DNA from: Candidatus Omnitrophota bacterium
GTDB taxonomy: Bacteria > Omnitrophota > Gorgyraeia > Duberdicusellales > 4484-171
DNA: 64,000 nt
Direction: 5' to 3'
NCBI GenBank assembly: GCA_023134705.1
Contig: JAGLUN010000051.1
Span: 3,362 to 67,361, forward strand
In this document: piece after piece, positions 1-24,495 of the stretch
Layout of the letters: every line of letters begins with the position of its first letter
How positions within the stretch are numbered: the first letter of the stretch is position 1
Translations under genes and position numbers: made by a program
Notes under the pieces: generated by a model
What the model saw: only the letters and a program-made list of their open reading frames with translations
The model's database searches: none
What the model was told of the DNA's origin: nothing

Positions 1-1
1 T

Positions 2-1156
2 AAAAGGCTGAAAAAACACTTAATTATTAACAATAGTCTGCCTAAAACCATACTCGGTAAAATTAAACGCTACGAAGTAGAAAAAAAGTACGCTCATATA
101 ACAGAAGAGAAAGAAGAAAGAACAAAAGAATTATCACCTCAGGATTTAGAATTGTTAGCTTCCCCCATTTGCGGCAGAACTTTAGCCTATTTTTCCGCTG
201 AATTAAAACGGCCGCTTAACTTAGACGATCATTTAGAGCTGGACCTGGGTTTGGATTCTTTAGAACAGATAGGTTTATTTTTCGGATTTCAAGACGCTCT
301 TAGTGTAGAAATAAGCGAGGAGCAATTTCTCGGCGTATCCACTATCCGCGGCGTTTTAAAAAAGATAAAGGCTTCTTCTGAAGCAGCATCTTTAAAAGAA
401 ACAGCCCTAAACTGGCGGGAGATTTTACATTCGCCGGTTAAAGAAGACATAAAAGCATCCATATCTTTACGGCAATCTTCTACCGCAAAAGTCATTAATA
501 TTATTTTTTTGTGGATGCTGAAATTCATAACCCATACGGTTTTTCCTCTGAGAGTAAACGGTAAAGAGAATTTGCCGGAGAAAGGCCCTTTTATTTTATG
601 CCCTAACCATACCAGTTACCTGGACGGATTGATCCTGGCTTCTTCTCTGGATTCCTCTGCCCTTTTTAAGACTTACTTCCTGGGGTTTGCCGCTTATCTC
701 AAGCATCCTTTAATTGTTTGGACAAACAAGCTTTTGAGATTAATTCCTATAGATACTGCTTCAAGCTTAATGGACAGTTTAAAAATGTGTGCTTTTATTT
801 TGGGTGAGTCTAAAATATTATGCATGTTCCCGGAGGGGATCCGTTCCACTAATGGTAAACTCGGGGAGTTTAAGCGGGGGGTCGGAATCCTTGTTAAGGA
901 ATTGAATGTTCCGGTAGTTCCCGTGTATATCCGGGGTACTTATGAGGCCTGGCCTTTTTTTAAAAGACTGCCGAAATTGAATAAACTAAGCCTTTCTTTC
1001 GGTAAATTGTTAACCCCTGGGGAACTTGCCTCAGGAGGAGAATATAAGGTTGACATTTATAAAAATATAGTTGATAATTTAAAGCGAGAGATTTTGAATT
1101 TACAAAAAGAAAATGTGGTAGAAAGTAAAAATGAAATTGGGATTAATAAAAATTAA
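2..1156 (+). CDS. 3' part of a fusion protein: AMP-binding (acyl-CoA/acyl-ACP synthetase) C-terminus + phosphopantetheine-binding ACP domain + PlsC-type lysophospholipid acyltransferase (Aas-like). The 5' end lies outside the window.
   Basis: The open frame from position 2 reads LPKTILGKIKRYEVEKK, the C-terminal signature of AMP-binding enzymes. It is followed by LGLDSLEQIGL (PP-binding DSL serine), then the acyltransferase motifs NHTSYLDG (HxxxxD) and FPEGIRSTNGK (PEGTR). It is in frame with the listed ORF 152..1156. Confidence 0.6.
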   Translation, partial: KRLKKHLIINNSLPKTILGKIKRYEVEKKYAHITEEKEERTKELSPQDLELLASPICGRTLAYFSAELKRPLNLDDHLELDLGLDSLEQIGLFFGFQDALSVEISEEQFLGVSTIRGVLKKIKASSEAASLKETALNWREILHSPVKEDIKASISLRQSSTAKVINIIFLWMLKFITHTVFPLRVNGKENLPEKGPFILCPNHTSYLDGLILASSLDSSALFKTYFLGFAAYLKHPLIVWTNKLLRLIPIDTASSLMDSLKMCAFILGESKILCMFPEGIRSTNGKLGEFKRGVGILVKELNVPVVPVYIRGTYEAWPFFKRLPKLNKLSLSFGKLLTPGELASGGEYKVDIYKNIVDNLKREILNLQKENVVESKNEIGINKN

Positions 1157-1571
1157 ACACCTCCTTTCAAGAGACAAAAGGAAGACCGAACGCCTTATAC
1201 TGGGGGGGAATCTTTGGTATCGGCTTGGTTTTTCTCAGAAATGGACGGGCCCGTTGCCTATAGAAAATATCAGCGGCGGCGGAATTAACTTCAGATATAA
1301 AAAAAGCTTTAAGAAAAATACCGTGATAAATCTTATGATAAGTTTTCTTGGTGAAAGCGAACCTATAATCGTAAAAGGTAAAGTGACCTGGTGTAAGGCA
1401 ATGACCCCTCGCAAAACTTTAAACAATGAAGTTTTACCGGGGGGCTACAAAACAGGCGTTAAGTTCTTCAAGATGGATTATAATGACCGCCGCAAATTCA
1501 TAGATTACTTTAGCGAAAAGGTCATTACTAAATACCTGGATGCCGAAGGGAGAATGGAATCAGAAAAATGA
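1131..1571 (+). CDS. PilZ-domain protein (putative c-di-GMP receptor)
   Basis: RDKRKTER (RxxxR) is followed about 25 aa later by ENISGGG (D/NxSxxG), the two PilZ c-di-GMP binding motifs. The protein is small (146 aa) and its start overlaps the preceding gene. Confidence 0.55.
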   Translation: MKLGLIKIKHLLSRDKRKTERLILGGNLWYRLGFSQKWTGPLPIENISGGGINFRYKKSFKKNTVINLMISFLGESEPIIVKGKVTWCKAMTPRKTLNNEVLPGGYKTGVKFFKMDYNDRRKFIDYFSEKVITKYLDAEGRMESEK

Positions 1572-2410
1572 GTTTAGTAAAAACTACTGCGATAATATCC
1601 AGCGAGACGGATTTACAGACTTTTCTTAAATCTGTCGAGTATAGAGTTGTACGGAATAAAGAAGAGCTAAAGAAATCCTGCGCTCTCGTGTATAACGAAT
1701 ACATCAAAAGAGGTTATATGGAAAAAAATTTTTCCGGGTTAAGGATTTCAATCTATAACGCTTTTCCTCAAACAACTACTTTCATTGCCATTGTCGAACA
1801 CGAAGTCATAGCCACAGCTACTATAATACCTGATCTTTCTTTTGGGCTGCCGATGGAAACGACATACCATGAAGAACTTGAGAGATTCCGGAAGGAGAAC
1901 AAAAAGATTTGTGAGATATCTATGTTGGCCAGTGACACTGACCTTTTTAGCAGCGGAGCTTCAATGATGCTTCAGTCTAAAAAAATGTTTTTTATTTTCT
2001 TTTTATTCAAACTTATATTCGATTACGCCAAAAATATCCTTAACCTGGATAATATATGTATTACAATAAATCCCAAACACAATCTCACTTATGATTTTTT
2101 ATTATTTAAAAATATGGGTGGATTAAAAACATATTGCGATGCCAATGGGGCACCCGCGATAGCAAAATCCCTGGATTTAAATTCTATTGAAAAGGAATGT
2201 CAGGAAAAGAAAAAAGAAGGTATAGCCAGGATGTTTTTCCGGAGAAAAACCGATCCTGAGAAATTTTCCGGCAAATTTATGTTCAGCCTTCAGGATTTAA
2301 AATATTTTTTCACCGAGAAAACAGATATTTTTAAAAACGCCACCCCTTTTCAACTAGATTGCCTTAAACGCTGCTATCCCGCTTACGACTTCTCAACGAT
2401 TATCCCTTAA
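1568..2410 (+). CDS. GNAT-fold acyltransferase resembling the PEP-CTERM/exosortase-associated N-acyl amino acid synthase (FeeM-like) family
   Basis: 280 aa with a 4-bp start overlap with the PilZ gene. It sits next to an acyl-activating/ACP/acyltransferase gene, which is the context described for exosortase-associated N-acyltransferases. The family assignment rests on overall resemblance, not on a diagnostic motif. Confidence 0.4.
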   Translation: MSLVKTTAIISSETDLQTFLKSVEYRVVRNKEELKKSCALVYNEYIKRGYMEKNFSGLRISIYNAFPQTTTFIAIVEHEVIATATIIPDLSFGLPMETTYHEELERFRKENKKICEISMLASDTDLFSSGASMMLQSKKMFFIFFLFKLIFDYAKNILNLDNICITINPKHNLTYDFLLFKNMGGLKTYCDANGAPAIAKSLDLNSIEKECQEKKKEGIARMFFRRKTDPEKFSGKFMFSLQDLKYFFTEKTDIFKNATPFQLDCLKRCYPAYDFSTIIP

Positions 2411-2654
2411 GGAACGATAAAGAAAAAAATAATCATGAAACCACAGAGGACACCGAGAAATACTCTGGGAGAAGAGATGTCTCCCCCCTTTTGAAGATAT
2501 TAACCACAAAGAACCCAAAGAGCACAAAGTGAATGTTGATGAGTTAAAAAATAAAATTAACCCGCCAAAGGACGGATTTCGCTGGATACTTAATAAAGTG
2601 CTCAACCGCCGAAGGGGCAAATGGGAAAATATTTAAACCACAAGATTACACAGA

Positions 2655-2698
2655 TTCACCCTGTTAGATAATATAATTGAACCATCTAACGGGGTGAA
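2655..2698. other. Strong hairpin: 15-bp stem TTCACCCTGTTAGAT / ATCTAACGGGGTGAA with a 14-nt loop
   Basis: The inverted repeat is read directly from the sequence, with one T/G wobble position. It lies in the spacer between the two copies of the duplicated module. Confidence 0.6.
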
Positions 2699-3057
2699 CA
2701 CAGAAAAAAAGACACAGATAAACGCGGATTTTTTTAATTATGATTTAAAAGCGATATTTTCATATCAATCTTGTGAGAATCTCGTGAAAATTTTGTGGTT
2801 AAAAAATAATCCGCGTTAATCAGCTTAATACATTCCAATATGTGTTCTATCAATACTTTAACGTCTTTTTTCATAAAATAATCTCTTCTTCTTCTAATAT
2901 CTTTTCCTTAAGGAGAGAGTGAAGAGAAATATAGGTAACGATATTTTTACCTCCGGACAAAAATATAAGGTTGACATTTATAAAAATATAGTTGATAATT
3001 TAAAGCGAGAGATTTTGAATTTAAAAAAAGAAAGTGTGGTAGAAAATAAAAATTAAA

Positions 3058-3488
3058 TTGGGATTAATAAAAATTAAACACCTCGATTCAAGAGATAAAA
3101 GGAAGACCGAACGCCTTATGCTGGAGGGAAATCTTTGGGATAGGCTTGGTTTTTCTCAGAAATGGACCGGCCCTTTGCCTATAGAAAATATCAGCGGCGG
3201 CGGAATTAACTTCAGATATAAAAAAAGCTTTAAGAGAAATTCCGTGATAAATCCTATGATAGGTTTTCTTGGTGAAGGCGAACCTATAATCGTAAAAGGT
3301 AAAGTGACCTGGCCTAAGGCAATGCCTCCAGGCAAAACTTTAAACAATGAATTTTTACCGGGGGCTGCAAAACAGGCGTTAAGTTCTTCAAGATGGATTA
3401 TAATGACCGCCGCGAATTCATAGATTACTTTAGCGAAAAGGTCATTATTAAATACCTGGATGCCGAAGGCAAAATGGAATCAGAAAAA
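3058..3488 (+). pseudogene. PilZ paralog disrupted by a frameshift (G6 to G5 homopolymer) inside the duplicate copy
   Basis: It is identical in frame to the PilZ at 1131..1571 up to codon 101. From there the reading frame shifts, and the original C-terminus continues in another frame up to 3488. This could be a real pseudogene or a homopolymer sequencing error. Confidence 0.5.
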
Positions 3489-4300
3489 TGAGTTTAGTGA
3501 AAACTACTGCGGCAATATCCCGCGAGACGGATTTACGGACTTTTCTTGGACCTGTCGAGTATAGAGTTGTACGGAATAAAGAAGAGCTAAAGAAATCCTG
3601 CGCTCTCGTGTATAAAGAATACATAAAAAGAGGTTATATGGAAAAGAATTTTTCCGGGTTAAGGATTTCGATCTATAACGCTTTTCCTCAAACAACTACT
3701 TTCATTGCCATTGTCGAACAGGAAGTCATAGCCACAGCTACTATAATACCTGATCTTCCTTTTGGGCTGCCGATGGAGAAGACATACCATGAAGAACTTG
3801 AGAGATTCCGGAAGGACAACAAAAAGATTTGTCAGATATCTATGTTGGCCAGTGACAGCGAGCTTTTTAGCAGCGGAGCTTCAATGATGCTTCAGTCTAA
3901 AAAAATGTTTTTTGTTTTCTTTTTATTCAAACTTATGTTCGATTACGCTAAGAATATCCTTAACCTGGATAATGTATGTATTACAATAAATCCCAAACAC
4001 AATCCCACTTATGATTCTTTATTATTTAAAAATATGGGCGGATTAAAAACATATTCCGATGCCAATGGGGCACCCGCGATAGCAAAATTCCTGGATTTAA
4101 ATTCTGTCGAAACAGCCAGGATGTTTTTCTGGAGAAAAGCCGATCCTGAGAAATTTTCCGGCAAATTTATATTCAGCCATCAGGATTTAAAATACTTTTT
4201 CACCGAGAAAACAGATATCTTTAAAAACGCCACCCCTTTTCAACTAGATTGCCTTAAACGCTGCTATCCCGCTTACGACTTCTCAACGATTATTCCTTAA
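3488..4300 (+). CDS. Divergent paralog (270 aa, intact) of the GNAT-like N-acyl amino acid synthase-like protein
   Basis: It aligns over its full length to 1568..2410 with scattered substitutions and one 10-aa deletion. The frame is intact. Confidence 0.4.
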   Translation: MSLVKTTAAISRETDLRTFLGPVEYRVVRNKEELKKSCALVYKEYIKRGYMEKNFSGLRISIYNAFPQTTTFIAIVEQEVIATATIIPDLPFGLPMEKTYHEELERFRKDNKKICQISMLASDSELFSSGASMMLQSKKMFFVFFLFKLMFDYAKNILNLDNVCITINPKHNPTYDSLLFKNMGGLKTYSDANGAPAIAKFLDLNSVETARMFFWRKADPEKFSGKFIFSHQDLKYFFTEKTDIFKNATPFQLDCLKRCYPAYDFSTIIP

Positions 4301-4380
4301 GGATTTCACTTTGGATTATAATTTAAACTTTTATTTTCGGTTTTCTATTTTATGGTGTCTTGAATCTGGTATCTATTCAG

Positions 4381-4776: not shown

Positions 4777-4801
4777 TTTGGGGTGTAGGGATAGAAGGGG
4801 C

Positions 4802-10349: not shown

Positions 10350-10356
10350 TCTGTAA

Positions 10357-15902: not shown

Positions 15903-16754
15903 AATAAGAAATTATCAAGGCAAAAATTTACCGGAGAAAGGCTTCTCTCCGGTAAAACTACCCCTTACTTTTTGGAAGAACATGCCTGCCGTTACAAATT
16001 CATAAAGGATATTATAAAAAATAAAGTTGTACTTGATGTGGGATGTGGTGAAGGGTATGGAGCTTAGTATTTGTCTTATTATGCTCAAAAAGTTGTTGCT
16101 ATAGATTTATCCCAAGAAACTATTGTTTATGCCCGGCAAAAATACGTAAGAAATAATTTAGATTTTTTTACTATGAACTCCTGTAGATTAGGATTTGATA
16201 ATGGAACATTTGATGTTATCTGTTCGTTCGAAATGATTGAACATGTTTTAGATGCCGGGGATTATCTCAAGGAAGCACAACGAGTATTAAACCAGGAAGG
16301 TATATTTATAGTTTCGACTCCCAACAAAAACAATTATCTTTTACACGGAAAAAATGAATTTCACGTCAAAGAATATTCTCTTGATGAATTCAGAAGTGCC
16401 TTGCAAAAATACTTCTCAAAGGTCGAGTTTTTTGGGCAAATATGCGGTTCCCGTTTTAGAAAATATTATAATTATGCTTTAGCAGGAATTTTTTTGAAGT
16501 TTAAAATCTTAACCTATATGCAAAATTTTCTTTCTTCATTTGCTAAACCTAAAGTTATCACGTTAGATGAGGTAAAACCCGTTATTTTCAGTTTTCAAAG
16601 CATGAAGTGTGGAAAGCTGATTTTTTTATCGCAAAATGCAAGAAGGAAGCCCGCTAAAAACGAACTTCCTTCTTTAGTTTTTAAATTTAAGCGATGTCTA
16701 TCTAACTTAAGCTTTAAGCTTAGATTTTCTTGCTTTTCCTTCTTTTTCCCATAA
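15903..16754 (+). pseudogene. Class I SAM-dependent methyltransferase interrupted by an in-frame TAG (16065..16067) and lacking a canonical start codon
   Basis: In one frame it reads QKFTGERLLSGKTTPYFLEEHACRYKFI...VVLDVGCGEGYGA*YLSYYAQKVVAIDLS...FDVICSFEMIEHV. Motif I is intact but followed by a stop. There is no ATG/GTG/TTG between the upstream TAA at 15900 and motif I. Confidence 0.5.
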
Positions 16755-17667
16755 AAGCAAATCCAAAGAGACCGAATCCCAGAAGAATAAGAGTACACGG
16801 TTCAGGTGTTCCGTATGCCCGTATAGGATCGGAACTTGTGACTTGCCATCCGTTGCTACCAGTTGATAAATCATGGTGGAGCCATATATCCGCAATAGCA
16901 TTGAGGGGACCTATTGTAAATTGACCTGGTACAAATGCACCTTGTCCACTTCCACCTAGTATTTCCAGATAACCATCACCATATCCTGTGTTAACTATGT
17001 TTGGGGTTGCCGGATAGACATTTATTGAACATTTGTAAACTATTTCCGGGGTACCATCGTGATCAAGATCAAGATATGGCACAAATCTTGAGGTTAACCA
17101 GAGGTTATTTGGTGCATCATCAATACCAGGGTAAGAATCATGTGATATCCCTTCTACCCATGCTCCTGGACCAGCTTGAGGTGCATTACCAGCGAGAGTA
17201 TTCCAGTCTGCACTCGTATCCTGCCATAGATCTGCTCGACCTGTATACCCTTGGGTTGTATACCTATTTCCTGCTTCGTAGTAAAATACTTGGGTCACGC
17301 TCCCATCAATTTCCGGAGTCCATGTTTGCGCGGCTAAAACGATATCATACATCATGAATCCAAATTCATCTGTTAAACTAGGGGTCCATACTGGAGATAG
17401 TCCGCTAGTTGACCATCCTGGTGGACCGTCAGCATGCCATACACTCTCAATGTTTCCCACACTTCGATCTTCATCTCCTATTACAAGAGGAGCACCAATA
17501 CCAACCGGAGACCACTCCTGCTCAGTATCATTCCAACGGAAATTTCCACTTGCATCTGTCATATGGAGAGCTATCGGCCCTTGAGGAATAATAATCGCTT
17601 CTGCCTTGGGAACTGCCCAGCATAAACTTATGGCGATTGCCATTACGATTAAACCTATTTTCTTCAT
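16720..17667 (-). CDS. Secreted PEP-CTERM-anchored protein (exosortase substrate)
   Basis: It starts at MKKIG with the RBS GGAGGTG and a signal peptide. Its C-terminus GTPEPCTLILLGFGLFGFAFMGKRRKSKKI has the PEP motif, a transmembrane helix and a basic tail. Confidence 0.8.
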   Translation of the reverse strand: MKKIGLIVMAIAISLCWAVPKAEAIIIPQGPIALHMTDASGNFRWNDTEQEWSPVGIGAPLVIGDEDRSVGNIESVWHADGPPGWSTSGLSPVWTPSLTDEFGFMMYDIVLAAQTWTPEIDGSVTQVFYYEAGNRYTTQGYTGRADLWQDTSADWNTLAGNAPQAGPGAWVEGISHDSYPGIDDAPNNLWLTSRFVPYLDLDHDGTPEIVYKCSINVYPATPNIVNTGYGDGYLEILGGSGQGAFVPGQFTIGPLNAIADIWLHHDLSTGSNGWQVTSSDPIRAYGTPEPCTLILLGFGLFGFAFMGKRRKSKKI

Positions 17668-17821
17668 CTTTCTTTCACCTCCTTCTTTTTTAGATTTTTT
17701 GTGACTTGAATTGTCACTCTTTGTGAATAAATTTTTACGTCCCATTTTACTTCTCCCTCCTTTCTTCTTTTGTGTTTTGTTTTTTCATTATTTGTTATTT
17801 TCCTGCTATTCGCTTTAGTTT

Positions 17822-17839
17822 AAGCAAGAGGCGTGCCAG
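17822..17839 (-). promoter_or_regulatory. Sigma-54 promoter (-24 TGGCAC / -12 TTGCT) for the PEP-CTERM gene
   Basis: The minus strand reads CTGGCACGCCTCTTGCTT, a perfect TGGCAC-N5-TTGC. Confidence 0.6.
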
Positions 17840-18035
17840 ATAGGGGTTTTTGTTAGTATTTTTTTATACACGCAGATTTTTTCGTATCGCGTATCGAGTA
17901 TCGCGTATTGCGTAAAGAAAGTCGATAGTTAATAGCTGATAGTGGGAAAAGTAAGGCGTTAAATAGTTTTACGAGTTAGCGAGTTGAACGAGTTTAACGA
18001 GTTTTAATGAAAAGGATAGAGGTTTTTTATGAAAA

Positions 18036-18140
18036 ATTGTAAAGTTTTTCGAATGTGTAAAGGAAAGCGACAGATTTCGTGGAAATATGCTTTGTGAAAT
18101 GTACTTCCTGAAATACATGGAAATATAGTTGAAATAAATT
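18036..18140 (-). promoter_or_regulatory. Upstream activator-like region with direct repeats of the TGAAATA/GGAAATA type; candidate enhancer for the sigma-54 activator
   Basis: It reads GGAAATATGCTTTGTGAAATGTACTTCCTGAAATACATGGAAATATAGTTGAAATAAAT. The same block is present at 19413..19630, 20690..20740 and 58040..58125. Confidence 0.45.
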
Positions 18141-18192
18141 GTCTGCCATAGGCTCTTCCAAAGGCAGATCCTCCTCATTATGGTGGGAAAAT

Positions 18193-18208
18193 CACGGGCA
18201 TGCCCGTG
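18193..18208. promoter_or_regulatory. Perfect 16-bp palindrome CACGGGCATGCCCGTG
   Basis: It is read directly. An identical copy lies at 19654..19669, at the same relative position in the next intergenic module. Confidence 0.5.
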
Positions 18209-18296
18209 GGGTGTTCCATTAACTTAATTCCCCCTTCTCCCTCGCGCCTATTTCTAAATTGGGATTTGTTTGTGAAGTATGAAGTGTAGAACACAA

Positions 18297-18336
18297 ACAA
18301 AAAGACAGAAGCTTTTATGCTTCTGTCTTTTTTATC
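18297..18336 (-). terminator. Intrinsic terminator hairpin (GACAGAAGC / GCTTCTGTC stem, flanking T/A runs) after the PEP-CTERM gene 18379..19134
   Basis: A 9-bp perfect stem with a 6-nt loop is flanked by T6 on the plus strand and by TTTTTGTTTGT on the minus-strand transcript. Confidence 0.6.
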
Positions 18337-18340
18337 TATT

Positions 18341-18395
18341 CTTCACGCGATACGCAACATGCGATATGCGATACGCATTTACGCGATACGTTTTC
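18341..18395. repeat. Family-A CGCGATACG array overlapping the last codons of the PEP-CTERM gene
   Basis: It reads CACGCGATACGCAACATGCGATATGCGATACGCATTTACGCGATACG. Confidence 0.7.
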
Positions 18396-19134
18396 TCCGC
18401 CTGAATCCCGCACCAGCTAATCCTATAAGCCCGGATCCAAGAAGAAGTATGGTTGCCGGTTCGGGGATAGGAGCTGTGTCGGCATCGTGGGAATATGGAG
18501 CGAAAACATCCTTCGACGTCCCGTTATCTTTATAGTAGGTGCCTGTAAGGTCAAAATGGATAAAAGAAAATATGGGGTTATAACTTATATCGTAAACCTG
18601 AATCTGTCCTAAGTCTTGTCCGTCACTTTCTGCAGGATTCCCCGGATTATAAGACAGGTCATAATTGTAAACAGTTGTCATTACGGCAAGAGGTGTAAAT
18701 AAAAAATCGTCGAGCTCCATAGAGGCATAATAAGTGAGATATATTCCATGAGGAGAAGTCCCTTCAGGTTGTCCGAAAGTTTCAAAATCATCTTTAAAGA
18801 GCTTTATGCCACCAATAGTGATAATCGGTGTTGTCTCTTCTTCAGTTGTCTCTTCTTCATAGGAAAGGTATTGATTTTCAAGGAGTGATATATGAAGTTT
18901 GACCTCGGTTATCTCAGTAAGAGTCCCATTTTTAGAGGCGCCCACGGCCCAGAGTTCAAAAGGATTATCGGTAGTAATCCATGTGTCTTCGCTTTTATCG
19001 GGAAACCAAGGGCTAACTTCATAATAAGTAGAATTAGGAATATAGAGTTGCAGTGCAGAAACAGCAAAAGCCGGAGTTGTAATGCCAAATACTAAAAATA
19101 GAAGCATTAAACCTTTCAACATACTTTTTTTCAT
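18379..19134 (-). CDS. Secreted PEP-CTERM-anchored protein
   Basis: It has the signal peptide MKKSMLKGLMLLFLVFGITTPAFA. Its C-terminus is IPEPATILLLGSGLIGLAGAGFRRRKRIA. Confidence 0.8.
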   Translation of the reverse strand: MKKSMLKGLMLLFLVFGITTPAFAVSALQLYIPNSTYYEVSPWFPDKSEDTWITTDNPFELWAVGASKNGTLTEITEVKLHISLLENQYLSYEEETTEEETTPIITIGGIKLFKDDFETFGQPEGTSPHGIYLTYYASMELDDFLFTPLAVMTTVYNYDLSYNPGNPAESDGQDLGQIQVYDISYNPIFSFIHFDLTGTYYKDNGTSKDVFAPYSHDADTAPIPEPATILLLGSGLIGLAGAGFRRRKRIA

Positions 19135-19192
19135 CTTTCTGTTTCCTTATTTTAGTTTTTCATCTAAAAATATACATTTTTCACCTTTAGGT

Positions 19193-19210
19193 AAGCAAAA
19201 AATGTGCCAA
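19193..19210 (-). promoter_or_regulatory. Sigma-54 promoter (TGGCAC-N5-TTGCT) about 60 bp upstream of the PEP-CTERM start
   Basis: The minus strand reads TTGGCACATTTTTTGCTTAC. Confidence 0.6.
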
Positions 19211-19756
19211 AAGGGGAATTTTGGGGGATGTTTTTTATAAACGATGCTTGATCCTCGATGCTGGATGCTAGATACTAGTAAAGAATAGAGATAAAAGTGA
19301 GATGATAAGGACGAGGGATGAGAAAAGCAAAAATTAGACTCAAGACTTAAGACTCAATAGAGAAAGTCATAAGGTCATAAAGCCAAAAGTTGCCGAAATT
19401 TGGGGGAAAATTGTAAAACTTTTCGAATGTGTAAAGGAAACCGACATGTTTCGGGGAAATATGCTTTGTGAAATGTACTTCCTGAAATACATGGAAATAT
19501 AGTTGAAATGAATAGAGATATATAGAAATATATAGTCCGCCAAGGCGGATCCGCCTCCGGCGGAAAATATATTGAAATATGGTTGAAATAAATTGTCTGC
19601 TATAGGCTTTTCCAAACAAAGGCAGATTCTTCTCGTATGTATGGCGGGAAGATCACGGGCATGCCCGTGGGATGTTCCATTAACTTAATTCCCCTCTCCC
19701 TCGCGCCTATTTTTAAATTGGGATTTTGTTTGTGAAGTATGTAGTGTGTGACATAA

Positions 19757-19795
19757 ACAAAAAGGCAGGAGCTTTTATGCTTCTGCCTTTTTTAT
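19757..19795 (-). terminator. Intrinsic terminator hairpin (AGGCAGGAGC / GCTTCTGCCT) after the PEP-CTERM gene 19857..20567
   Basis: It is a near-perfect stem with a following T-run. It is homologous to the hairpin at 18297..18336. Confidence 0.55.
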
Positions 19796-19856
19796 CTATT
19801 CTTCACGCATTAAGCGATGACCGAAGGGAATCCTGAGTATCCCCGACGGATACGCG

Positions 19857-20567
19857 TTACGAGGTATGTTTTTTTTGCCTGAATCCCGCGCCAATCAATC
19901 CCAAAAGCCCGGATCCAAGAAGAAGAATGGTTGCGGGTTCGGGGATGGGCGGAGTGCCTCTATATTCCAATCGAAAGGGAGTGTCTATATCAGCATGCCA
20001 GTTCCAACGATTATTACGTTCGTCTAGGTGATAGAATCCATCTCCGGTAGCAACCTTTGGTAAACGAAAGTCCGTATCGTCTGTTGTTGTGGCGGCATTT
20101 GAACCATTTAATCCGTAAAAACTAAGCCAATACTCACCGGAAGGAAGACCTAATGGAGTTGGGAGTGTGAATTCAATATCGTAAATTTTGTCAATAGTGG
20201 AAAAAGGGGCTATAGAACTTTGTAAAGCAGTGTAGTCACCAGGTATGAGTATTTGTTCATAAAAAGGAGAGGAAGTATCTGGCTTTCCAGAGCTAGAGTC
20301 GTTGTTAAAAATTGAAAATGTAAATTTTTCGAGTGAATAGTTTATAGTTATGCCTTCTTGAAACCAAACGGTATCTATTGTTGAATCCTGAGGAAGTGTG
20401 AAATCGTCGTAAATGCGCCACTTAGAAGGTGTAAAAGCTTCAGATGAGCGAAGACCTCCAGCAGATGTTCCGATGCCATTATCATAAATAATAATTGCGT
20501 CAGCCGTGCATGTGGAAATTATAATTACAAACATAGTTATAAAGAATATTAATATTCTTTTTCCCAT
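19857..20567 (-). CDS. Secreted PEP-CTERM-anchored protein
   Basis: It has a signal peptide. Its C-terminus is PIPEPATILLLGSGLLGLIGAGFRQKKHTS. Confidence 0.8.
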   Translation of the reverse strand: MGKRILIFFITMFVIIISTCTADAIIIYDNGIGTSAGGLRSSEAFTPSKWRIYDDFTLPQDSTIDTVWFQEGITINYSLEKFTFSIFNNDSSSGKPDTSSPFYEQILIPGDYTALQSSIAPFSTIDKIYDIEFTLPTPLGLPSGEYWLSFYGLNGSNAATTTDDTDFRLPKVATGDGFYHLDERNNRWNWHADIDTPFRLEYRGTPPIPEPATILLLGSGLLGLIGAGFRQKKHTS

Positions 20568-20624
20568 TCTGATGCCTCCTTTTTTAAATCTTCATCTAAA
20601 AATATACATTTTCCACTTTGTAAC

Positions 20625-20642
20625 AAGCAAAAAATGTGCCAA
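20625..20642 (-). promoter_or_regulatory. Sigma-54 promoter (TGGCAC-N5-TTGCT)
   Basis: The minus strand reads TTGGCACATTTTTTGCTTGTT. The spacing to the ATG is the same as for the promoter at 19193..19210. Confidence 0.6.
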
Positions 20643-20741
20643 ATGAGGATGGATAGACGCAAATTATGAGATACGGTGAGATTGATAGCAATAATATAGT
20701 GGAAATATATAGAAATAGGTTGAAATATAGTTGAAATACAA

Positions 20742-20868
20742 GGTTACTTAAGGTTAGGGAAGGTTACGTAGGAAAGTTACATTGAGAAGGTTGCTTAAAG
20801 AAGGTTACTTCACGTCAACGTAACCTTAAGTAACTTTAAGTAACTTTATGTAACCTTATTTTAATTAA
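20742..20868. repeat. Family-B palindromic element in the opposite orientation
   Basis: It reads AAGGTTACTTAAGGTTAGGGAAGGTTACGTAGG...CACGTCAACGTAACCTTAAGTAACTTTAAGTAACTTTATGTAACC. Confidence 0.75.
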
Positions 20869-20931
20869 CTTCTGCAATCTTTTTTATCTATTTTTCCCGC
20901 GATACACAATACGCGATACGCGTTACGTTTT

Positions 20932-22296
20932 TCATCCAATTCCGTATTTCTTCATCAAATCATACAGGGTGGGGCGGGTGACTCCGAGCATCTTCGCGGC
21001 CAGGCTTACATTCTCTTTGCTTTCATCTAAGGCTTTTTTGATAAGCTGAATTTCCATATTCTCGCGGGCTTCTTTTAAAGAAAGTTTCCCTGAATTTGAA
21101 TCTTCTCTATCGCCTCCGCCAAAGCCAAGCTCTGAAGAAATAATAAAAGAATTCTCTGCCAGGATAAAAGCTCTACGGACTCTATTTTCCATTTCTCTTA
21201 CATTACCCGGCCAGCTATAACTGTTCATTAAATCTTTACATTCTTTAGTAAAGCCCTTTATGGATTTGACCGGAGATTCTTCGCGATACTTATTAAGGAA
21301 ATAAGCAGCTAAAAGCAGTACATCTTCTCCTCTTTCCCGCAAAGGGGGGATTTGAAAGTTTATAACACTTAGCCGGTAATATAGATCTTCTCTGAACAGG
21401 CCTTGTTTAATCTTTTTCTTTAAATCGCTGTTAGTCGCGGCAATGATTCTTAGATTGAGCTCTATCGGATTATTCCCTCCAACGCGTTCTATAACATGTT
21501 CCTGGAGAAATCTTAAAATTTTCACCTGTAATCCAAGACTCATCTCACCGATTTCATCTAAGAAAACCGTGCCGGTATCAGCTATTTCCAATTTCCCAAT
21601 CCTTTTTATATGAGCATCGGTAAACGCGCCTTTTTCGTGGCCGAATAGTTCACTTTCTAAAAGATTCTCGGGAATCGCTCCGCAGTTTATTACCACAAAA
21701 GGGTGTTTTCCTCTTGGACTTAGGTAATGGATTGCTTTTGCCACTAATTCTTTTCCTGTGCCGCTTTCTCCGGTAATTAAAACCGCGGCATCGGTAGGCG
21801 CTACTCTTCTTATCAATTTAAAAACTTCTTTTATCGCCGGAGAACTGCCTATCATATCTTCAAATTTAAACTTATTCTGTAATTGTTCGGATAAACGCCG
21901 GTTTTCTTCCTCTAATTCCCGCAAGTATACGGCTCTTTTTAATATCACTTTTAATTCTTCGATTTTTACCGGCTTTGAATAATAATCAAACGCTCCTTTG
22001 TTTATAGATTCCAAGGCAATATCTTTTGTGTCATTTCCGGTTATCATAATTACTTTAATAAAAGGGTCATTATTTTTAATTTCCTCTAAAATTTCTATCC
22101 CTTCTTTCCGGTTTTTATTTAACGGGTCTAAATTAATGTCTAAAGCCGCTAGTTCAAATTTTTGTTCTCTAATTACTTTCAAGGCTTCCGGTTTATTTGA
22201 AGCAGTCAGGACTCCATAATCTCCTTCTAAAGCCCATTTTAGCTGTTTAAGGATACCTTCATCGTCGTCGACGATCAAAATTTTAGTTTTTGCCAT
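20932..22296 (-). CDS. prsR: Sigma-54-dependent response regulator (NtrC family; PEP-CTERM-box regulator PrsR type)
   Basis: It has a receiver domain (ILIVDDDEG ... D54-like), an AAA+ domain (GESGTGKE Walker A, and GAFTDA, a variant of GAFTGA) and a C-terminal Fis-type HTH. It lies downstream of prsK and next to sigma-54-promoted PEP-CTERM genes. Confidence 0.8.
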
Positions 22297-22476
22297 AGTT
22301 TACTCCATTTCTTAGTTTATCGAGTTTATCGAGTTCAATTGTCACGAATTCGATAGATTATGAGTAGTTAGTAGTTTGTTTAAAAAAATATGTTATCAGA
22401 CCGCTCACCAAAATATATCCTTCTCCCAAACCAACTACAAACTACAATGCACTTTTAAATTGAACTCGCTAACTTC

Positions 22477-24495
22477 TCACACTTGGGGCAATCTCACTTT
22501 AAACACTGTCCCCTCTCCCTCAACGCTTTCCGCCTCAATCTCCCCTCCATGTGCCTCGATAATAGTCTTGCATTGATAAAGGCCTACACCCATTCCCTTT
22601 TCTTTGGTGGAGCTAAAGGCTTTAAAAAGTTCATTCTCAATGAAATCTTTGGACATGCCGGTGCCGGTATCTTTAAATCGAATCTCGGCGAAGTTCCTCC
22701 CCGATTTACTGTCAATTCCCGGTTGTCCGGTATAAATCCCGGTGGAAATTATAAGATTTCCTTCGCCAGGCATGGCTTCCAGGGCGTTTATTAAAAGATT
22801 AAGAATGACTTTATTCATATAACGGCGGTCAACACATATTTCTATTGATTCCTCCACGTCTATAGTAAGCCGCGTATTCTTAAATCTGTCTTTTCCTAAG
22901 TCCCTTAAGGCTTCATTAATCAAATATGACAATTTATGTTTTTCCTTATTTATTGCTAAGTCTCCGCGCAATGTTTTAAATTCATTAATTAAACGTTTCA
23001 TTTTCCCGATAGCGTTTTCCAGCGTAAAAAAAGCGTCTTCCCGGAATTCAGGATTATTGAATTTATCTTTATTAGAAACAAGGAGTGAAAGGCTGTTAAC
23101 ATAATTCTTAACGTCATGGATAACGAATGAGGATAGTTTATAAATTGATTCTTTTTTCTCGGCTTCCCGTAATTTTTGATAAGCCCAGCAGTTTAAAATA
23201 ACGCTGGACGCCTGCAGTGATAAAACCTTAAGAAGTTCTTTGTCCAAGAAGTTGTTATCATTTAAAGACATCCCGATCAATCCGATAATTTCCTTATCTC
23301 CATATAAAGGCATTGCCGCTTCAATCTTGTTTTCTTTAAAAAAAACTTTTGCTTTGGGAAATTTGTTTTTATCCGGAGAAGAACTGTTAAAAGTTTCGTT
23401 AAAGTTAAAGGCTTCTCCCTGCCTTAGAAGCCGGTCACAAAATCCTTCTTCAAAAGGTGTCTCTTTTTCAAAGACAAAAACCCGGACAGCGGAAACATTC
23501 ATAATTTTTGAAATCGCGTCCTGGATGTTTTTCTTTATTTTTTCGACATCAGTAACGAGAGAAATTTTATAAGTAAAATCTTCCCAGATTTTTTGCCAAT
23601 CATATTTTTGGCGGGTTAAATACCTTAATAGGAATGTTCTTAACCGCTCCCGGAAAGATAATGAGAAGATAAGAAATAGTAAAGCGAAAAATATAAAAAG
23701 CGCGGTTAGAAAAGAAAACAGAACATTCAGATTCCAGCCAAAAGTCTGGAACAGTTTGATGAACGCGCCGATGAAAAATAGATAGCCTCCGACAAGGAAA
23801 AGAGTCAAAGAGGCATGAATTACGGTTTTTTCTTTTACTGCTTCGATAGAAAAACCTTTTTGAGAGGCAAAAAGAAAAATCAATCCGCCGGCAAAGACGC
23901 TTATTGACGAATAAGTTAAAACTCCAATATGTATCTCAAAAAATAATACCGCGTAGGTAGCCAGAACAACATACGGAGTAAGTAAAAATAAAGCGCTTGT
24001 AAAAAGCAATCCCAGCCTCTTTTGTCTTAAAAAGTATAAGCTTCTTTCTATATTGGAAATTGAAAAACTCAAATCAAAAATAAGAAAAATAAAAAAATAT
24101 TGCGCTAATTGAGGGAGTGTCGGGAATAAGTCATTCCCCGGTAAAATTATAAAAGGCTTTATCCACCAGAGCAGGAAAAACATCAAGGAAATAAGTCCTA
24201 AAACCGGGGTTAAAATCAGCCGGTTAAAAACATACCGTTTAGAGGGTAGCAATGATACGCTGAAAATAAGCCAAAATAAGGATATAAGGCAAAATCCCAG
24301 GCCGAATATCTTATCCGCGAAAGGGACCTCAAAAAAGAAGGAAAACTTGGCGATTTCCAAAACTACAAGGCTTAAAATACAAAATGCCGCCAGAAGATTG
24401 GTAATGCTCTTGCGCTTGAAAAGATTAAAGGTAGAAAACCCCAGCATAAAGATATTTACAATCGCAATTATTGATAAAATTGTTTGATCAAACAT
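22477..24495 (-). CDS. prsK: Multi-pass membrane sensor histidine kinase (PrsK-like PEP-CTERM-system kinase)
   Basis: It has about 10 N-terminal transmembrane helices, a GAF-like segment, an H-box VIHDVKN and an HATPase domain (GTGMSKDF, GMGVGL). It is 672 aa. Confidence 0.7.
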   Translation of the reverse strand: MFDQTILSIIAIVNIFMLGFSTFNLFKRKSITNLLAAFCILSLVVLEIAKFSFFFEVPFADKIFGLGFCLISLFWLIFSVSLLPSKRYVFNRLILTPVLGLISLMFFLLWWIKPFIILPGNDLFPTLPQLAQYFFIFLIFDLSFSISNIERSLYFLRQKRLGLLFTSALFLLTPYVVLATYAVLFFEIHIGVLTYSSISVFAGGLIFLFASQKGFSIEAVKEKTVIHASLTLFLVGGYLFFIGAFIKLFQTFGWNLNVLFSFLTALFIFFALLFLIFSLSFRERLRTFLLRYLTRQKYDWQKIWEDFTYKISLVTDVEKIKKNIQDAISKIMNVSAVRVFVFEKETPFEEGFCDRLLRQGEAFNFNETFNSSSPDKNKFPKAKVFFKENKIEAAMPLYGDKEIIGLIGMSLNDNNFLDKELLKVLSLQASSVILNCWAYQKLREAEKKESIYKLSSFVIHDVKNYVNSLSLLVSNKDKFNNPEFREDAFFTLENAIGKMKRLINEFKTLRGDLAINKEKHKLSYLINEALRDLGKDRFKNTRLTIDVEESIEICVDRRYMNKVILNLLINALEAMPGEGNLIISTGIYTGQPGIDSKSGRNFAEIRFKDTGTGMSKDFIENELFKAFSSTKEKGMGVGLYQCKTIIEAHGGEIEAESVEGEGTVFKVRLPQV

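What the first reader, a model, noticed from the sequence alone, without database searches (positions are those of the whole stretch)
2..4302. Acyl-activation/ACP/PlsC fusion + PilZ + N-acyl amino acid synthase-like operon: a c-di-GMP-linked acylation module in a PEP-CTERM locus
The incoming gene ends with an AMP-binding C-terminus fused to an ACP domain and a PlsC-type acyltransferase (HxxxxD, PEGTR). It overlaps a PilZ-domain gene (RxxxR...NxSxGG), which in turn overlaps a GNAT-like gene resembling exosortase-associated N-acyl amino acid synthases.

Acyl-CoA ligase, ACP and N-acyltransferase genes are known companions of PEP-CTERM/exosortase loci, but their function is unknown.

A PilZ c-di-GMP receptor inserted between them with overlapping start/stop codons is not a described arrangement. 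It suggests c-di-GMP control of an acylation step, for example lipidation of EPS or of a substrate protein, or synthesis of an N-acyl amino acid signal.
Basis: partly seen in the sequence, partly recalled or inferred. Interest (0 to 1): 0.75.

Follow-up and report, generated by a model that had tools for sequence, protein, structure and literature searches.

The report
PilZ-partnered N-acyl amino acid synthase operon
[quoted passage not shown] Its pieces were each known, but this layout had not been described.

Summary

It holds a PlsC tail, a frameshifted PilZ and a NAS copy whose catalytic Glu is Gln.

In 39 loci from other genomes (Omnitrophota, Scalindua, other MAGs), PilZ lies directly upstream of NAS, usually abutting or overlapping it. 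FUS is adjacent in about 60% of them, on either side.

Most of these loci belong to a conserved island with exosortase/EpsI, PEP-CTERM proteins, PrsK/R-like regulators, a priming sugar transferase and LolA-like/DUF1302/MMPL or ABC exporters. The PEP-CTERM context is therefore real.

It is not wholly new. NAS-exosortase linkage was published in 2011, and NAS-PilZ fusion enzymes that make N-acyltyrosine in 2016. TIGR03694 and TIGR03098 membership is not met.

Best reading: a c-di-GMP-gated N-acyl amino acid or aminolipid synthesis module with its own acyl supply. It is a new variant of a known kind, of moderate interest. c-di-GMP binding, the product and the role in sorting are all inferred.

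The parts
2..1156 (+). 3' 384 codons of the 897-aa FUS gene: end of the adenylation domain (A10 GKIKR), ACP (about 185-358; Ppant Ser at 257-259), hydrophobic segment, PlsC acyltransferase (about 548-931; HTSYLD 608-625; FPEGIRS 827-847)
   Evidence: Pfam. Full gene L001:1906-4599 with AMP-binding/AMP-binding_C_3/PP-binding/Acyltransferase. Motifs conserved in 17 full-length orthologs. Coordinates.
1050..1078 (+). Sigma-70-like promoter match TTGACA-17-GATAAT (11 of 12) inside the 3' end of FUS, upstream of PilZ. It is included in the duplicated unit.
   Evidence: (L001 4514-4542 and 6435-6463). This is a consensus match only: the total number of such sites equals the shuffle expectation.
1131..1571 (+). 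Single-domain PilZ protein (146 aa): N-terminal helix, RKTER (1179-1193), NISGGG (1266-1283), beta-barrel, conserved C-terminal helix
   Evidence: Pfam 36.2 bits. Motif conservation. AF2 pLDDT 87 and Foldseek matches to c-di-GMP-bound PilZ domains. Directly upstream of NAS in 39 loci.
1568..2410 (+). FeeM-type N-acyl amino acid synthase (280 aa): GNAT-like core (about aa 25-205; catalytic Glu116, GAG at 1913-1915) plus a helical C-terminal sub-domain (aa 205-280)
   Evidence: Pfam 111.8 bits. Profile vs PDB FeeM 2G0B E 5e-30. AF2 pLDDT 89.5 and Foldseek 2G0B TMt 0.84. Glu in 85 of 86 NAS domains.
2411..2946 (.). Spacer between the two copies. It contains a remnant of a HepT/MNT toxin-antitoxin pair (2818-2944 is 90% identical to 5087-5213).
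2947..3056 (+). Duplicated tail of the PlsC domain (last ~36 codons; the ORF call is 2919-3056), not attached to any adenylation/ACP/PlsC body
3058..3491 (+). Second PilZ copy, interrupted by a 1-nt deletion in a G-run at about 3359 (ORF fragments 3058-3423 and 3393-3491). A likely pseudogene, though a homopolymer assembly error is not excluded.
   Evidence: (PilZ 18.1 bits, below cut-off)
3488..4300 (+). Second NAS copy (270 aa, 91% identical): catalytic Glu replaced by Gln (CAG at 3833-3835), 30-nt in-frame deletion, dN/dS 0.50 against copy 1. Predicted to be catalytically dead.
   Evidence: The E103A change abolishes activity in Nas354 (PMC4897644).
8107..13829 (+). Conserved companions of the module: B12/radical-SAM protein (8107-9681), ABC ATPase (9672-10349), FtsX/MacB-type permease (10357-11586), LolA-like protein (11558-12385), DUF1302 outer-membrane protein (12456-13829)
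   Evidence: Precomputed Pfam. Pfam. The same genes neighbour PilZ-NAS in other genomes.
16720..24495 (-). Exosortase-system genes of the window: three PEP-CTERM proteins (16720-17745, 18379-19134, 19857-20567), PrsR (20932-22296) and a PrsK-like kinase (22477-24495)
   Evidence: NCBIfam, (TIGR02595 hits; TIGR02915 558 bits above its cut-off; TIGR02916 248 bits below its cut-off of 300)..

Best explanation
[quoted passage not shown] It belongs to the exosortase/PEP-CTERM-exopolysaccharide island of an Omnitrophota bacterium.

Proposed mechanism, step by step:
1. The FUS adenylation domain activates a free fatty acid and loads it onto the phosphopantetheine of its own ACP. This is inferred from intact A3/A5/A10 motifs and the DSL serine.
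2. The FeeM-type NAS takes the acyl chain from an acyl-ACP and N-acylates an amino acid, using Glu116. Homology and the catalytic residue are shown. The amino acid and the use of the FUS ACP are inferred. In Scalindua, which lacks FUS, housekeeping acyl-ACP would serve, as it does for FeeM and Nas354 in E. coli.
3. The membrane-associated PlsC domain adds a second acyl chain to a hydroxyl, either on the N-acyl amino acid (OlsA/GlsA-like) or on a lysolipid (Aas-like). The acceptor is inferred.
4. The single-domain PilZ protein is made in fixed stoichiometry with NAS, because the two genes abut or overlap. It binds c-di-GMP through RxxxR/NxSxxG and switches NAS activity by protein-protein contact, so that lipid output follows the biofilm signal. 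This is inferred from the strictly conserved pairing and from published NAS-PilZ fusions.
5. The neighbouring ABC or MMPL transporter, LolA-like carrier and DUF1302 barrel carry the product to the outer membrane or cell surface. There it supports exosortase-dependent matrix assembly. This step is inferred from synteny only.

The second copy (2947-4300) is a decaying duplicate and not a working part.
For: Domains and catalytic residues:
- Domain identities are above the curated cut-offs.
- Catalytic motifs are intact and conserved in 17 FUS orthologs.
- The NAS profile matches FeeM 2G0B (E 5e-30), with the catalytic Glu aligned.
- That column holds Glu in 85 of 86 NAS domains examined.
- The predicted NAS fold matches FeeM (TMt 0.84), then the AHL synthase LasI.

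PilZ:
- The model (pLDDT 87) matches c-di-GMP-bound PilZ domains of MotI, Alg44, YcgR, MrkH and BcsA.
- R17 and R21 are invariant in 26 orthologs.
- PilZ lies directly upstream of NAS on the same strand in 39 loci. It is absent next to all more distant NAS homologs.
- The median distance from the PilZ stop to the first aligned NAS residue is 26 nt.
- The pair persists in Scalindua among housekeeping genes, without FUS or exosortase genes. NAS is therefore the likely partner of PilZ, rather than FUS.

Neighbourhood:
- FUS is adjacent and co-directional in at least 21 loci, on either side of the pair.
- The conserved neighbours are exosortase/EpsI, PEP-CTERM proteins, PrsR/HK, Bac_transf, LolA_like, DUF1302, MMPL(HAE3)/ABC-FtsX and ThiF.

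Literature:
- Nas343/Nas354 are NAS-PilZ fusions that make N-acyltyrosine in E. coli, and E103A abolishes activity (PMC4897644).
- A NAS of a PEP-CTERM system is needed for polysaccharide band formation in Methylomonas LW13 (PMC11072679).
- An N-acyltransferase plus a PlsC-type O-acyltransferase is the standard two-step aminolipid route (PMC11631085).
Against: - There is no experimental datum for this family. c-di-GMP binding, a PilZ-NAS contact, the acyl donor, the amino acid and the PlsC acceptor are all inferred.
- The Ser of (D/N)xSxxG is Gly (or Cys) in roughly half of the orthologous PilZ proteins, so c-di-GMP binding may not be universal.
- No GGDEF or EAL gene lies in the window, and only 1 of 38 loci has a GGDEF-motif ORF nearby.
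- FUS is missing within 9-10 kb in about 40% of loci, some of them truncated contigs, and its PlsC domain scores best against Aas-type lysophospholipid acyltransferase models rather than OlsA (20 bits). It may serve another lipid reaction.
- No exosortase gene is present in the window itself.
- I could not retrieve a NAS-PilZ fusion related to this clade.
Confidence: 0.6

Rival explanations
1. PilZ is a constitutive structural or chaperone subunit of NAS and does not sense c-di-GMP, like the non-binding Xanthomonas PilZ orthologs. The pairing then reflects an obligate heterodimer, not signalling.
For: The motif Ser is Gly or Cys in about half of the orthologs. The best sequence matches in the PDB are the Xanthomonas 'type IV fimbriae assembly' PilZ proteins. 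No c-di-GMP turnover genes lie nearby.
Against: RxxxR (R17, R21) is invariant and G51 is conserved. The window protein carries both motifs in canonical form. The top structural matches are c-di-GMP-bound PilZ domains. From my own recollection, non-binding PilZ proteins typically lack RxxxR.
Confidence: 0.15
2. FUS is an Aas-like lysophospholipid re-acylation (membrane repair or remodelling) enzyme that is only co-located with PilZ-NAS. The pair uses housekeeping acyl-ACP and releases a soluble N-acyl amino acid such as N-acyltyrosine, which acts as a surfactant, antibiotic or signal rather than as a membrane lipid.
For: The PlsC domain scores best against acyl-ACP--phospholipid O-acyltransferase models (108 bits for the domain, 272 bits for the whole protein). 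FUS position is variable and it is absent from Scalindua and other loci. Nas354 and the stieleriacine NAS enzymes give free N-acyltyrosines with surfactant, antibiotic or biofilm-modulating activity (PMC4897644; PMC7293339).
Against: FUS is immediately adjacent and co-directional with the pair in at least 21 loci, in both layouts. A built-in ACP is unnecessary for an Aas-type enzyme. All equivalog cut-offs for Aas are missed by a wide margin. The conserved LolA-like/DUF1302/MMPL set suggests a product that stays in the envelope.
Confidence: 0.2
3. The locus is non-functional debris: a mobile-element-ridden region in which the acylation genes are decaying.
For: A partial duplication with a frameshifted PilZ and an E116Q NAS copy, a TA remnant at the junction, and HepT/MNT and AbiE cassettes and tandem repeats immediately downstream.
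Against: Copy 1 has intact reading frames and all catalytic motifs. The same three genes are conserved at 45-76% identity in dozens of genomes.
Confidence: 0.03

Closest known systems
Nas343/Nas354, metagenome-derived NAS-PilZ fusion enzymes (Thies et al. 2016, Sci Rep 6:27035; PMC4897644)
   Same: A FeeM-type (type I) NAS core with a catalytic Glu in an xI(A/C)E(V/I)SxL motif. About 80 residues of unknown fold follow the core. A PilZ domain with c-di-GMP motifs is associated. The proposal is the same: c-di-GMP regulates N-acyl amino acid synthesis.
   Different: There, PilZ is fused to the C-terminus of one 394-aa polypeptide. Here it is a separate gene upstream of NAS. The authors judged their genes not to be in a biosynthetic operon. 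Here the pair travels with an AMP-ACP-PlsC fusion and an exosortase island. I could not obtain their sequences, so homology of the linker with residues 205-280 is an inference.
PEP-CTERM/exosortase-associated N-acyl amino acid synthases (Craig, Cherry & Brady 2011, J Bacteriol 193:5707; TIGR03694)
   Same: A long-chain NAS gene embedded in exosortase/PEP-CTERM/EPS clusters, with companion AMP-ligase and ACP genes in such loci. A knock-out of such a NAS in Methylomonas LW13 impairs polysaccharide band formation (PMC11072679).
   Different: The window NAS gives no NCBIfam hit other than PRK14852. It is a PF21926 FeeM-family protein with its own PilZ partner, and the acyl-activating functions are fused with a PlsC domain. 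The 2011 paper itself is not held in the library, so I know it only from citations.
FeeM (PDB 2G0B), N-acyltyrosine synthase from soil eDNA
   Same: Sequence (E 5e-30), fold (TMt 0.84) and catalytic Glu. FeeM is an acyl-ACP-dependent N-acyltransferase related to LuxI-type AHL synthases.
   Different: FeeM lacks the helical C-terminal sub-domain. It works in a different (fee) cluster and has no PilZ partner.
Two-step aminolipid pathways: OlsB/OlsA (ornithine lipid), GlsB/GlsA (glycine lipid), bifunctional OlsF
   Same: A GNAT-type N-acyltransferase plus a PlsC-type O-acyltransferase encoded together, giving a two-tailed amino-acid lipid from acyl-ACP (review PMC11631085).
   Different: The OlsA model scores only 20 bits (cut-off 300). 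The acyl chain here is supplied by a dedicated adenylation-ACP unit, not by FAS 3-hydroxyacyl-ACP. No evidence exists for a 3-hydroxy acyl donor, and no PilZ is known in those pathways.
Aas (2-acyl-GPE acyltransferase / acyl-ACP synthetase) and related MFS-PlsC-AMP proteins (NCBIfam PRK08043, PRK08633)
   Same: Combination of an acyl-ACP-synthetase-type adenylation domain with a PlsC acyltransferase domain. These models give the best PlsC-domain scores.
   Different: The domain order is reversed (AMP then PlsC). An ACP is built in between the two domains. The equivalog cut-offs are missed (272 vs 1221; 168 vs 886). The genomic context is an exosortase island. FAAL-LPLAT fusions have been noted only in passing (PMC8460268).
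PilZ control of exopolysaccharide machines and single-domain PilZ adaptors (Alg44, BcsA, MotI/YcgR; the MapZ-CheR1 methyltransferase complex 5Y4R)
   Same: A PilZ beta-barrel with RxxxR and (D/N)xSxxG. c-di-GMP-dependent control of an enzyme or machine tied to biofilm matrix production. Structural matches.
   Different: The target here would be an acyltransferase that makes a lipid or surfactant, not a glycosyltransferase, a motor or a chemotaxis enzyme.

Membership tests
[quoted passage not shown] | Profile match above the curated cut-off | tested here: met
   111.8 bits vs cut-off 27 (copy 1) and 116.6 bits (copy 2)
[quoted passage not shown] | Catalytic glutamate (FeeM Glu95 / Nas354 Glu103) | tested here: met
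   Glu116 aligns with the FeeM Glu in the KKLAEV motif. It is invariant in A2/A5 and is Glu in 85 of 86 domains. Copy 2 has Gln, so the feature is not met for copy 2.
[quoted passage not shown] | GNAT/LuxI-like fold of FeeM | tested here: met
   AF2 model pLDDT 89.5. Foldseek 2G0B E 1.7e-14, TMt 0.84.
[quoted passage not shown] | Makes long-chain N-acyl amino acids from acyl-ACP | not testable with these tools
   Needs heterologous expression and LC-MS
Exosortase-system-associated NAS (TIGR03694) | Match to the family model | tested here: not met
   An NCBIfam scan at E <= 0.1 returned only PRK14852 for both NAS copies
Exosortase-system-associated NAS (TIGR03694) | Genomic association with exosortase/PEP-CTERM genes | tested here: met
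   27 of 38 related loci carry exosortase-system markers within 9 kb. PEP-CTERM proteins and PrsR are in the window.
PilZ c-di-GMP receptor (PF07238) | Profile match above the cut-off and PilZ beta-barrel fold | tested here: met
   36.2 bits vs 22.5. AF2 pLDDT 87. Foldseek hits to MotI, Alg44, YcgR, MrkH and BcsA.
PilZ c-di-GMP receptor (PF07238) | RxxxR motif | tested here: met
   RKTER at 1179-1193. R17 and R21 invariant in orthologs.
PilZ c-di-GMP receptor (PF07238) | (D/N)xSxxG motif | tested here: inconclusive
   The window protein has NISGGG, so the motif is met. About half of the NAS-linked orthologs have Gly or Cys in place of Ser.
PilZ c-di-GMP receptor (PF07238) | Binds c-di-GMP | not testable with these tools
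   Needs ITC, DRaCALA or similar
PlsC/LPLAT acyltransferase (PF01553) | Profile match, HX4D and (F)PEG(x)R motifs | tested here: met
   91.1 bits vs 23. HTSYLD and FPEGIRS present. H, D and FPEG are 100% conserved in 17 orthologs.
Aas-type bifunctional acyl-ACP synthetase / lysophospholipid acyltransferase | Equivalog-level match and PlsC-then-AMP domain order with a trans-acting ACP | tested here: not met
   PRK08633 272 bits vs 1221; PRK08043 168 vs 886. The order here is AMP-ACP-PlsC with an in-cis ACP.
Exosortase A-associated acyl-CoA ligase (TIGR03098) | Match to the family model | tested here: not met
   It is not among the 25 best of 106 matching NCBIfam models for full-length FUS, so it scored below 145 bits. 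The best hits are generic fatty-acid-CoA ligases, all under their cut-offs. The model's own cut-off was not displayed.
OlsB/OlsA-type aminolipid pathway | N-acyltransferase and PlsC-type O-acyltransferase encoded together | tested here: met
   NAS and the PlsC domain are in one gene cluster in at least 21 loci
OlsB/OlsA-type aminolipid pathway | Membership of the OlsA (lyso-ornithine lipid O-acyltransferase) family | tested here: not met
   NF052553 20 bits vs cut-off 300
Nas343/Nas354-type NAS-PilZ enzymes | NAS and PilZ on one polypeptide | tested here: not met
   They are separate genes that overlap by ATGA. No fusion was found in any related locus or database hit.

The most novel reading that the evidence does not exclude
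The module may make the missing acceptor of exosortase. NAS plus the PlsC domain would build a two-tailed aminolipid with a free amine (for example a lysine- or ornithine-type lipid). It would be made only when c-di-GMP is high and delivered by the adjacent Lol-like/MMPL/DUF1302 route. Exosortase would then resolve its acyl-enzyme intermediate onto that amine, so PEP-CTERM proteins would become C-terminally lipid-anchored. This would parallel the C-terminal lipid anchoring attributed to archaeosortase and rhombosortase substrates, which I recall from memory and did not check here. The ThiF-like enzyme could activate a carboxylate in the same pathway. It is fused to NAS in the PRK14852 family and is a neighbour in 13 loci.
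Probability: 0.1. Interest if true: 0.85.

Novelty: new variant of a known kind. Interest (0 to 1): 0.5.

Why it matters
Two questions have been open since 2006-2011: what exosortase attaches PEP-CTERM proteins to, and why N-acyl amino acid synthases travel with exosortase genes.

This clade offers a compact and strongly conserved gene set in which the acyl supply, carrier, two acyltransferases, a second-messenger receptor and a lipid-export route are all encoded side by side. That turns both questions into a small heterologous-expression experiment.

It would also add a lipid or surfactant-forming acyltransferase to the list of c-di-GMP/PilZ targets, which is so far dominated by polysaccharide synthases, motors and transcription factors. 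In addition, it gives a first functional handle on envelope biology in the uncultured Omnitrophota and in anammox Scalindua.

If the product is simply a secreted N-acyltyrosine-like surfactant, the finding is a useful but incremental extension of Thies et al. 2016.

Tried and rejected
1. Search for NAS-PilZ fusion proteins related to this clade (Rosetta-stone evidence). I tried a PilZ profile search of 5.8 billion proteins, a broad NAS profile search, and an exhaustive PilZ profile search of 1.84 billion representatives followed by an NAS-HMM scan of the 150 best. None was found. The long hits are multi-PilZ proteins. The only fusion evidence is therefore the literature.
2. Neither is met.
3. 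Exosortase in the window. None was found among the ORFs scanned. In relatives it lies 3-6 kb beyond the Bac_transf gene, which would be left of window position 1. L001 ends too early to show it.
4. c-di-GMP turnover genes near the module. There is no GGDEF motif in window ORFs of at least 150 aa, and only 1 of 38 loci has one.
5. An exact-sequence look-up of the window's PilZ protein found nothing. The sister assembly carries a copy-2-like patch at 1103-1253.
6. tRNA and Rfam scans of the window were empty, so no riboswitch or c-di-GMP aptamer is present.
7. Craig et al. 2011 could not be read because it is not held.
8. I considered a concatenated PilZ+NAS complex prediction and did not submit it.
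9. I considered that the duplication is an assembly artefact. It is present in two assemblies with 4-8% divergence between copies, so a real duplication is more likely. The 1-nt G-run deletion in PilZ copy 2 could still be an error.

Full report
**What is in the sequence**

ORF listing and translation show three tightly packed genes on the + strand:
- an incoming gene that ends at 1156;
- a 146-aa gene at 1131-1571;
- a 280-aa gene at 1568-2410.

Pfam gives these scores:

| Gene | Family | Bits | Cut-off |
|---|---|---|---|
| Incoming gene | PP-binding | 28.4 | 20.8 |
| Incoming gene | Acyltransferase PF01553 | 91.1 | 23 |
| 146-aa gene | PilZ | 36.2 | 22.5 |
| 280-aa gene | FeeM PF21926 | 111.8 | 27 |

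An exact-protein look-up found a metagenome contig (L001, ENA ERZ23498525). It is 99.9% identical to window 1-12410 and extends 3.46 kb further left.

In L001 the incoming gene is complete. It is 897 aa with AMP-binding, AMP-binding_C_3, PP-binding and Acyltransferase domains. I call it FUS.

Upstream of FUS lie about 800 nt of repeat-rich non-coding DNA and a divergent polyprenyl glycosylphosphotransferase. That protein scores 282 bits on TIGR03025 and 250 bits on the XrtA-system model TIGR03013, both just under their cut-offs.

- ACP serine in LDSLE (257-259);
- HTSYLD (608-625);
- PilZ RKTER (1179-1193) and NISGGG (1266-1283).

PilZ and NAS overlap by ATGA, with a GGGAG-type ribosome-binding site 12-20 nt upstream.

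The 26-nt FUS/PilZ overlap exists in the window only. In L001 the two genes merely abut. All 14 differences between the two assemblies fall in 1103-1253, where L001 resembles the second copy.

**The second half of the interval is a decaying duplicate**

Repeat finding and alignment show that 1026-2413 recurs at 2947-4303 with 92-96% identity.

The copy comprises:
- only the last ~36 codons of PlsC;
- a PilZ gene with a 1-nt deletion in a G-run (6 G in copy 1, 5 G in copy 2);
- a 270-aa NAS with a 30-nt in-frame deletion.

The catalytic glutamate of that NAS copy is replaced by glutamine (GAG to CAG at 3833-3835). Among 86 NAS domains in all loci I fetched, 85 have Glu at this column. This copy is the only exception.

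dN/dS between the two NAS copies is 0.50.

A fragment of a HepT/MNT toxin-antitoxin pair sits at the junction: 2818-2944 is 90% identical to 5087-5213.

I conclude that the working unit is 2-2410. The G-run indel could still be an assembly error.

**Are the enzymes intact?**

Seventeen full-length FUS orthologs conserve the following:
- the adenylation motifs YTSGTTxxPKG, GYGLTE and GKxxR;
- the DSL serine (100%);
- the PlsC His and Asp of HX4D (100%);
- FPEGxRS.

A profile of the NAS family matches FeeM (PDB 2G0B) at E 5e-30. The FeeM catalytic Glu aligns with Glu116.

The AlphaFold model of NAS (pLDDT 89.5) superposes on FeeM (TMt 0.84), then on the AHL synthase LasI. It also shows a confident helical sub-domain at residues 205-280 that no solved structure covers.

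The PilZ model (pLDDT 87) has four parts in order: an N-terminal helix, the RxxxR segment, a beta-barrel and a conserved C-terminal helix. Its best structural matches are c-di-GMP-bound PilZ domains of MotI, Alg44, YcgR, MrkH and BcsA.

**Comparative genomics**

The NAS protein is annotated in NCBI as a hypothetical protein of a Candidatus Omnitrophica MAG. It has more than 100 homologs of about 280 aa, all PF21926. Most are from Omnitrophota, with some from Scalindua and other MAGs.

A scan of one genome per species returned 77 loci. Searching their ORFs with the window proteins and with profile HMMs gave four results:
- PilZ lies directly upstream of NAS on the same strand in 39 loci. That is essentially every locus whose NAS is at least 35% identical. 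The exceptions are one contig edge and two other loci.
- PilZ lies next to none of the more distant NAS homologs.
- The median gap from the PilZ stop codon to the first aligned NAS residue is 26 nt.
- FUS is adjacent and co-directional upstream of the pair in 13 loci and downstream in 8, divergent in 2, and absent within 9-10 kb in the rest, including three Scalindua genomes.

In Scalindua the pair sits among housekeeping genes (DNA ligase, UvrA, peptidases, SurA, cytochrome c assembly).

PilZ-NAS is therefore the invariant unit, and FUS is a frequent accessory.

**The wider neighbourhood**

I clustered all neighbouring ORFs and annotated representatives. This reveals a conserved island with two layouts.

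One layout is fully co-directional, in this order:
1. exosortase/EpsI
2. Bac_transf
3. PEP-CTERM protein
4. MMPL (HAE3)
5. ThiF-like
6. LolA_like
7. DUF1302
8. PilZ
9. NAS
10. FUS
11. two TPR proteins
12. HK-PrsR-HK

The other layout is the window's. Exosortase, two TPR proteins and Bac_transf lie on the minus strand. FUS-PilZ-NAS follows on the plus strand. A DUF1302/LolA_like/FtsX/ABC/radical-SAM block comes next.

Within 9 kb of the pair, counts that are lower bounds because many contigs are short:

| Feature | Loci (of 38) |
|---|---|
| Any exosortase-system marker | 27 |
| Exosortase itself | 10 |
| Lipid-export set | 25 |
| FUS | 24 |
| ThiF-like | 13 |

The window matches this picture:
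- radical SAM, ABC, FtsX, LolA_like and DUF1302 at 8107-13829;
- three PEP-CTERM proteins, PrsR (558 bits, above its cut-off) and a PrsK-like kinase at 16720-24495;
- a 35-kb polysaccharide cluster beyond that.

The window differs in having HepT/MNT and AbiE cassettes inserted after the NAS genes. No exosortase gene is visible in it.

The exosortases of relatives score nearest XrtA and XrtD, but below those subtype cut-offs.

**What was already known**

- Thies et al. 2016 (PMC4897644) found two metagenomic NAS enzymes with a C-terminal PilZ domain: NAS at 1-200, an unknown linker at 200-278, and PilZ at 279-394. They showed N-acyltyrosine production in E. coli and loss of activity with E103A. 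They proposed c-di-GMP regulation.
- Craig, Cherry & Brady 2011 linked long-chain NAS genes to PEP-CTERM/exosortase clusters. I know this only from citations, because the paper is not held.
- Disruption of such a NAS in Methylomonas LW13 impairs polysaccharide band formation (PMC11072679).
- A planctomycete N-acyltyrosine (stieleriacine) cluster contains a PEP-CTERM gene (PMC7293339).
- The pairing of an N-acyltransferase with a PlsC-type O-acyltransferase is the canonical aminolipid route (PMC11631085).
- FAAL-lysophospholipid-acyltransferase fusions have been mentioned only in passing (PMC8460268).
- Full-text searches for exosortase with PilZ returned only the Thies paper.

The elements are therefore known. 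What appears undescribed in the open literature I could search:
- the split, translationally coupled PilZ-NAS pair;
- its fixed place in an exosortase and lipid-export island;
- the AMP-ACP-PlsC tri-domain partner.

**Mechanism**

I favour the following, with confidence about 0.6:
1. FUS activates a fatty acid and carries it on its own ACP.
2. NAS N-acylates an amino acid from acyl-ACP.
3. The PlsC domain adds a second chain.
4. PilZ, produced stoichiometrically with NAS, couples output to c-di-GMP.
5. The Lol-like/MMPL/DUF1302 genes move the product to the outer envelope, where it serves exosortase-dependent matrix assembly.

On step 5: DUF1302/DUF1329 and RND genes show co-fitness in Pseudomonas, and export of an envelope component has been proposed for them (bioRxiv 10.1101/2020.07.04.188060).

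Shown here: domain identity, intact catalytic residues and conserved gene linkage.

Inferred: ligand binding, the PilZ-NAS contact, the acyl donor, the amino acid, the PlsC acceptor, export and the link to sorting.

Main caveats:
- The motif Ser is Gly or Cys in about half of the PilZ orthologs.
- No c-di-GMP turnover genes lie nearby.
- FUS is absent from about 40% of loci.
- The PlsC domain resembles Aas-type enzymes most closely.

Rivals:
- a non-sensing structural PilZ subunit (0.15);
- an unrelated Aas-like role for FUS with a secreted N-acyl amino acid product (0.2);
- a decaying locus (0.03).

**Verdict**

The finding is a new variant of a known kind, with moderate interest (0.5).

The most novel reading not excluded is that the product is the lipid acceptor onto which exosortase transfers PEP-CTERM proteins (probability about 0.1).

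Noticed in passing
window 4392-4760 and 5520-5671: Arrays of 7-nt tandem units (GTATCGA/GGATCCA-like) followed by 10-nt units (AAGGTTACAT-like) flank the HepT/MNT toxin-antitoxin cassette (4802-5427) on both sides as direct repeats (86-93% identical blocks). A core 19-mer occurs 4 times, against 0.09 expected by chance. The cassette looks like an inserted unit bounded by these repeats.
   Followed up: partly
window 2734-2960: Remnant of a second HepT/MNT pair (N-terminus of HepT, C-terminus of MNT; 90% identical to 5087-5213). It sits exactly at the junction of the PilZ-NAS duplication, which suggests the duplication arose by recombination involving the TA cassette.
   Followed up: partly
window 1103-1253 vs L001 4567-4717: All 14 differences between the window and the sister assembly L001 cluster in this 150-nt patch, where L001 carries the copy-2 sequence. 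This points to either gene conversion between the duplicates in a strain variant or a chimeric assembly. It changes the FUS stop and the PilZ start.
   Followed up: partly
NCBIfam PRK14852 (989 aa); L033:9989-11780 and the adjacent c25 gene; L018:1343-2443: A curated 989-aa 'hypothetical protein' family is a natural fusion of NAS (model positions 32-210), ThiF-like (313-588) and Acg/nitroreductase-like (619-979) domains. The same three families occur as neighbouring separate genes in several PilZ-NAS loci (NAS > ThiF > c25). This implies a further, unexplained adenylation/redox step linked to NAS.
   Followed up: partly
L027:808-1680 (cluster c6 representative): The priming sugar transferase (Bac_transf) of some related loci carries a PEP-CTERM-like segment (EPSTLALFASGLIGMIVSFVRR) in its N-terminal region, ahead of the catalytic domain. 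That is an odd place for a sorting signal. The window organism's Bac_transf (L001:196-1101) lacks it.
   Followed up: no
L024, L025, L027, L030, L047 (FUS orthologs of 962-998 aa): In the 'downstream' layout the FUS protein carries two tandem ACP domains instead of one.
   Followed up: no
window 5658-7623: A 23S rRNA intervening-sequence-type protein (5658-6128) and an AbiEii-type toxin with a putative AbiEi partner (6225-7623) lie between the acylation module and its conserved radical-SAM/ABC/LolA-like companions. This is a defence/TA islet inserted into the island.
   Followed up: no
window 26340-27428 (-): A 362-aa ORF at the edge of the polysaccharide cluster has no match in Pfam or NCBIfam.
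   Followed up: no
window 32108-33484 (-): A CapK/F390-synthetase-like adenylating enzyme (best hit: DVU_1553-family AMP-dependent ligase, 133 bits) lies inside the glycosyltransferase cluster. It is a second acyl- or aryl-activating enzyme in the same island.
   Followed up: no
L031:2742-3495 and L038:9192-9953: Two tandem PilZ genes precede NAS in these loci. L023 and L035 have two NAS genes, both retaining the catalytic Glu. Paralog expansion of both partners therefore occurs elsewhere without inactivation.
   Followed up: partly
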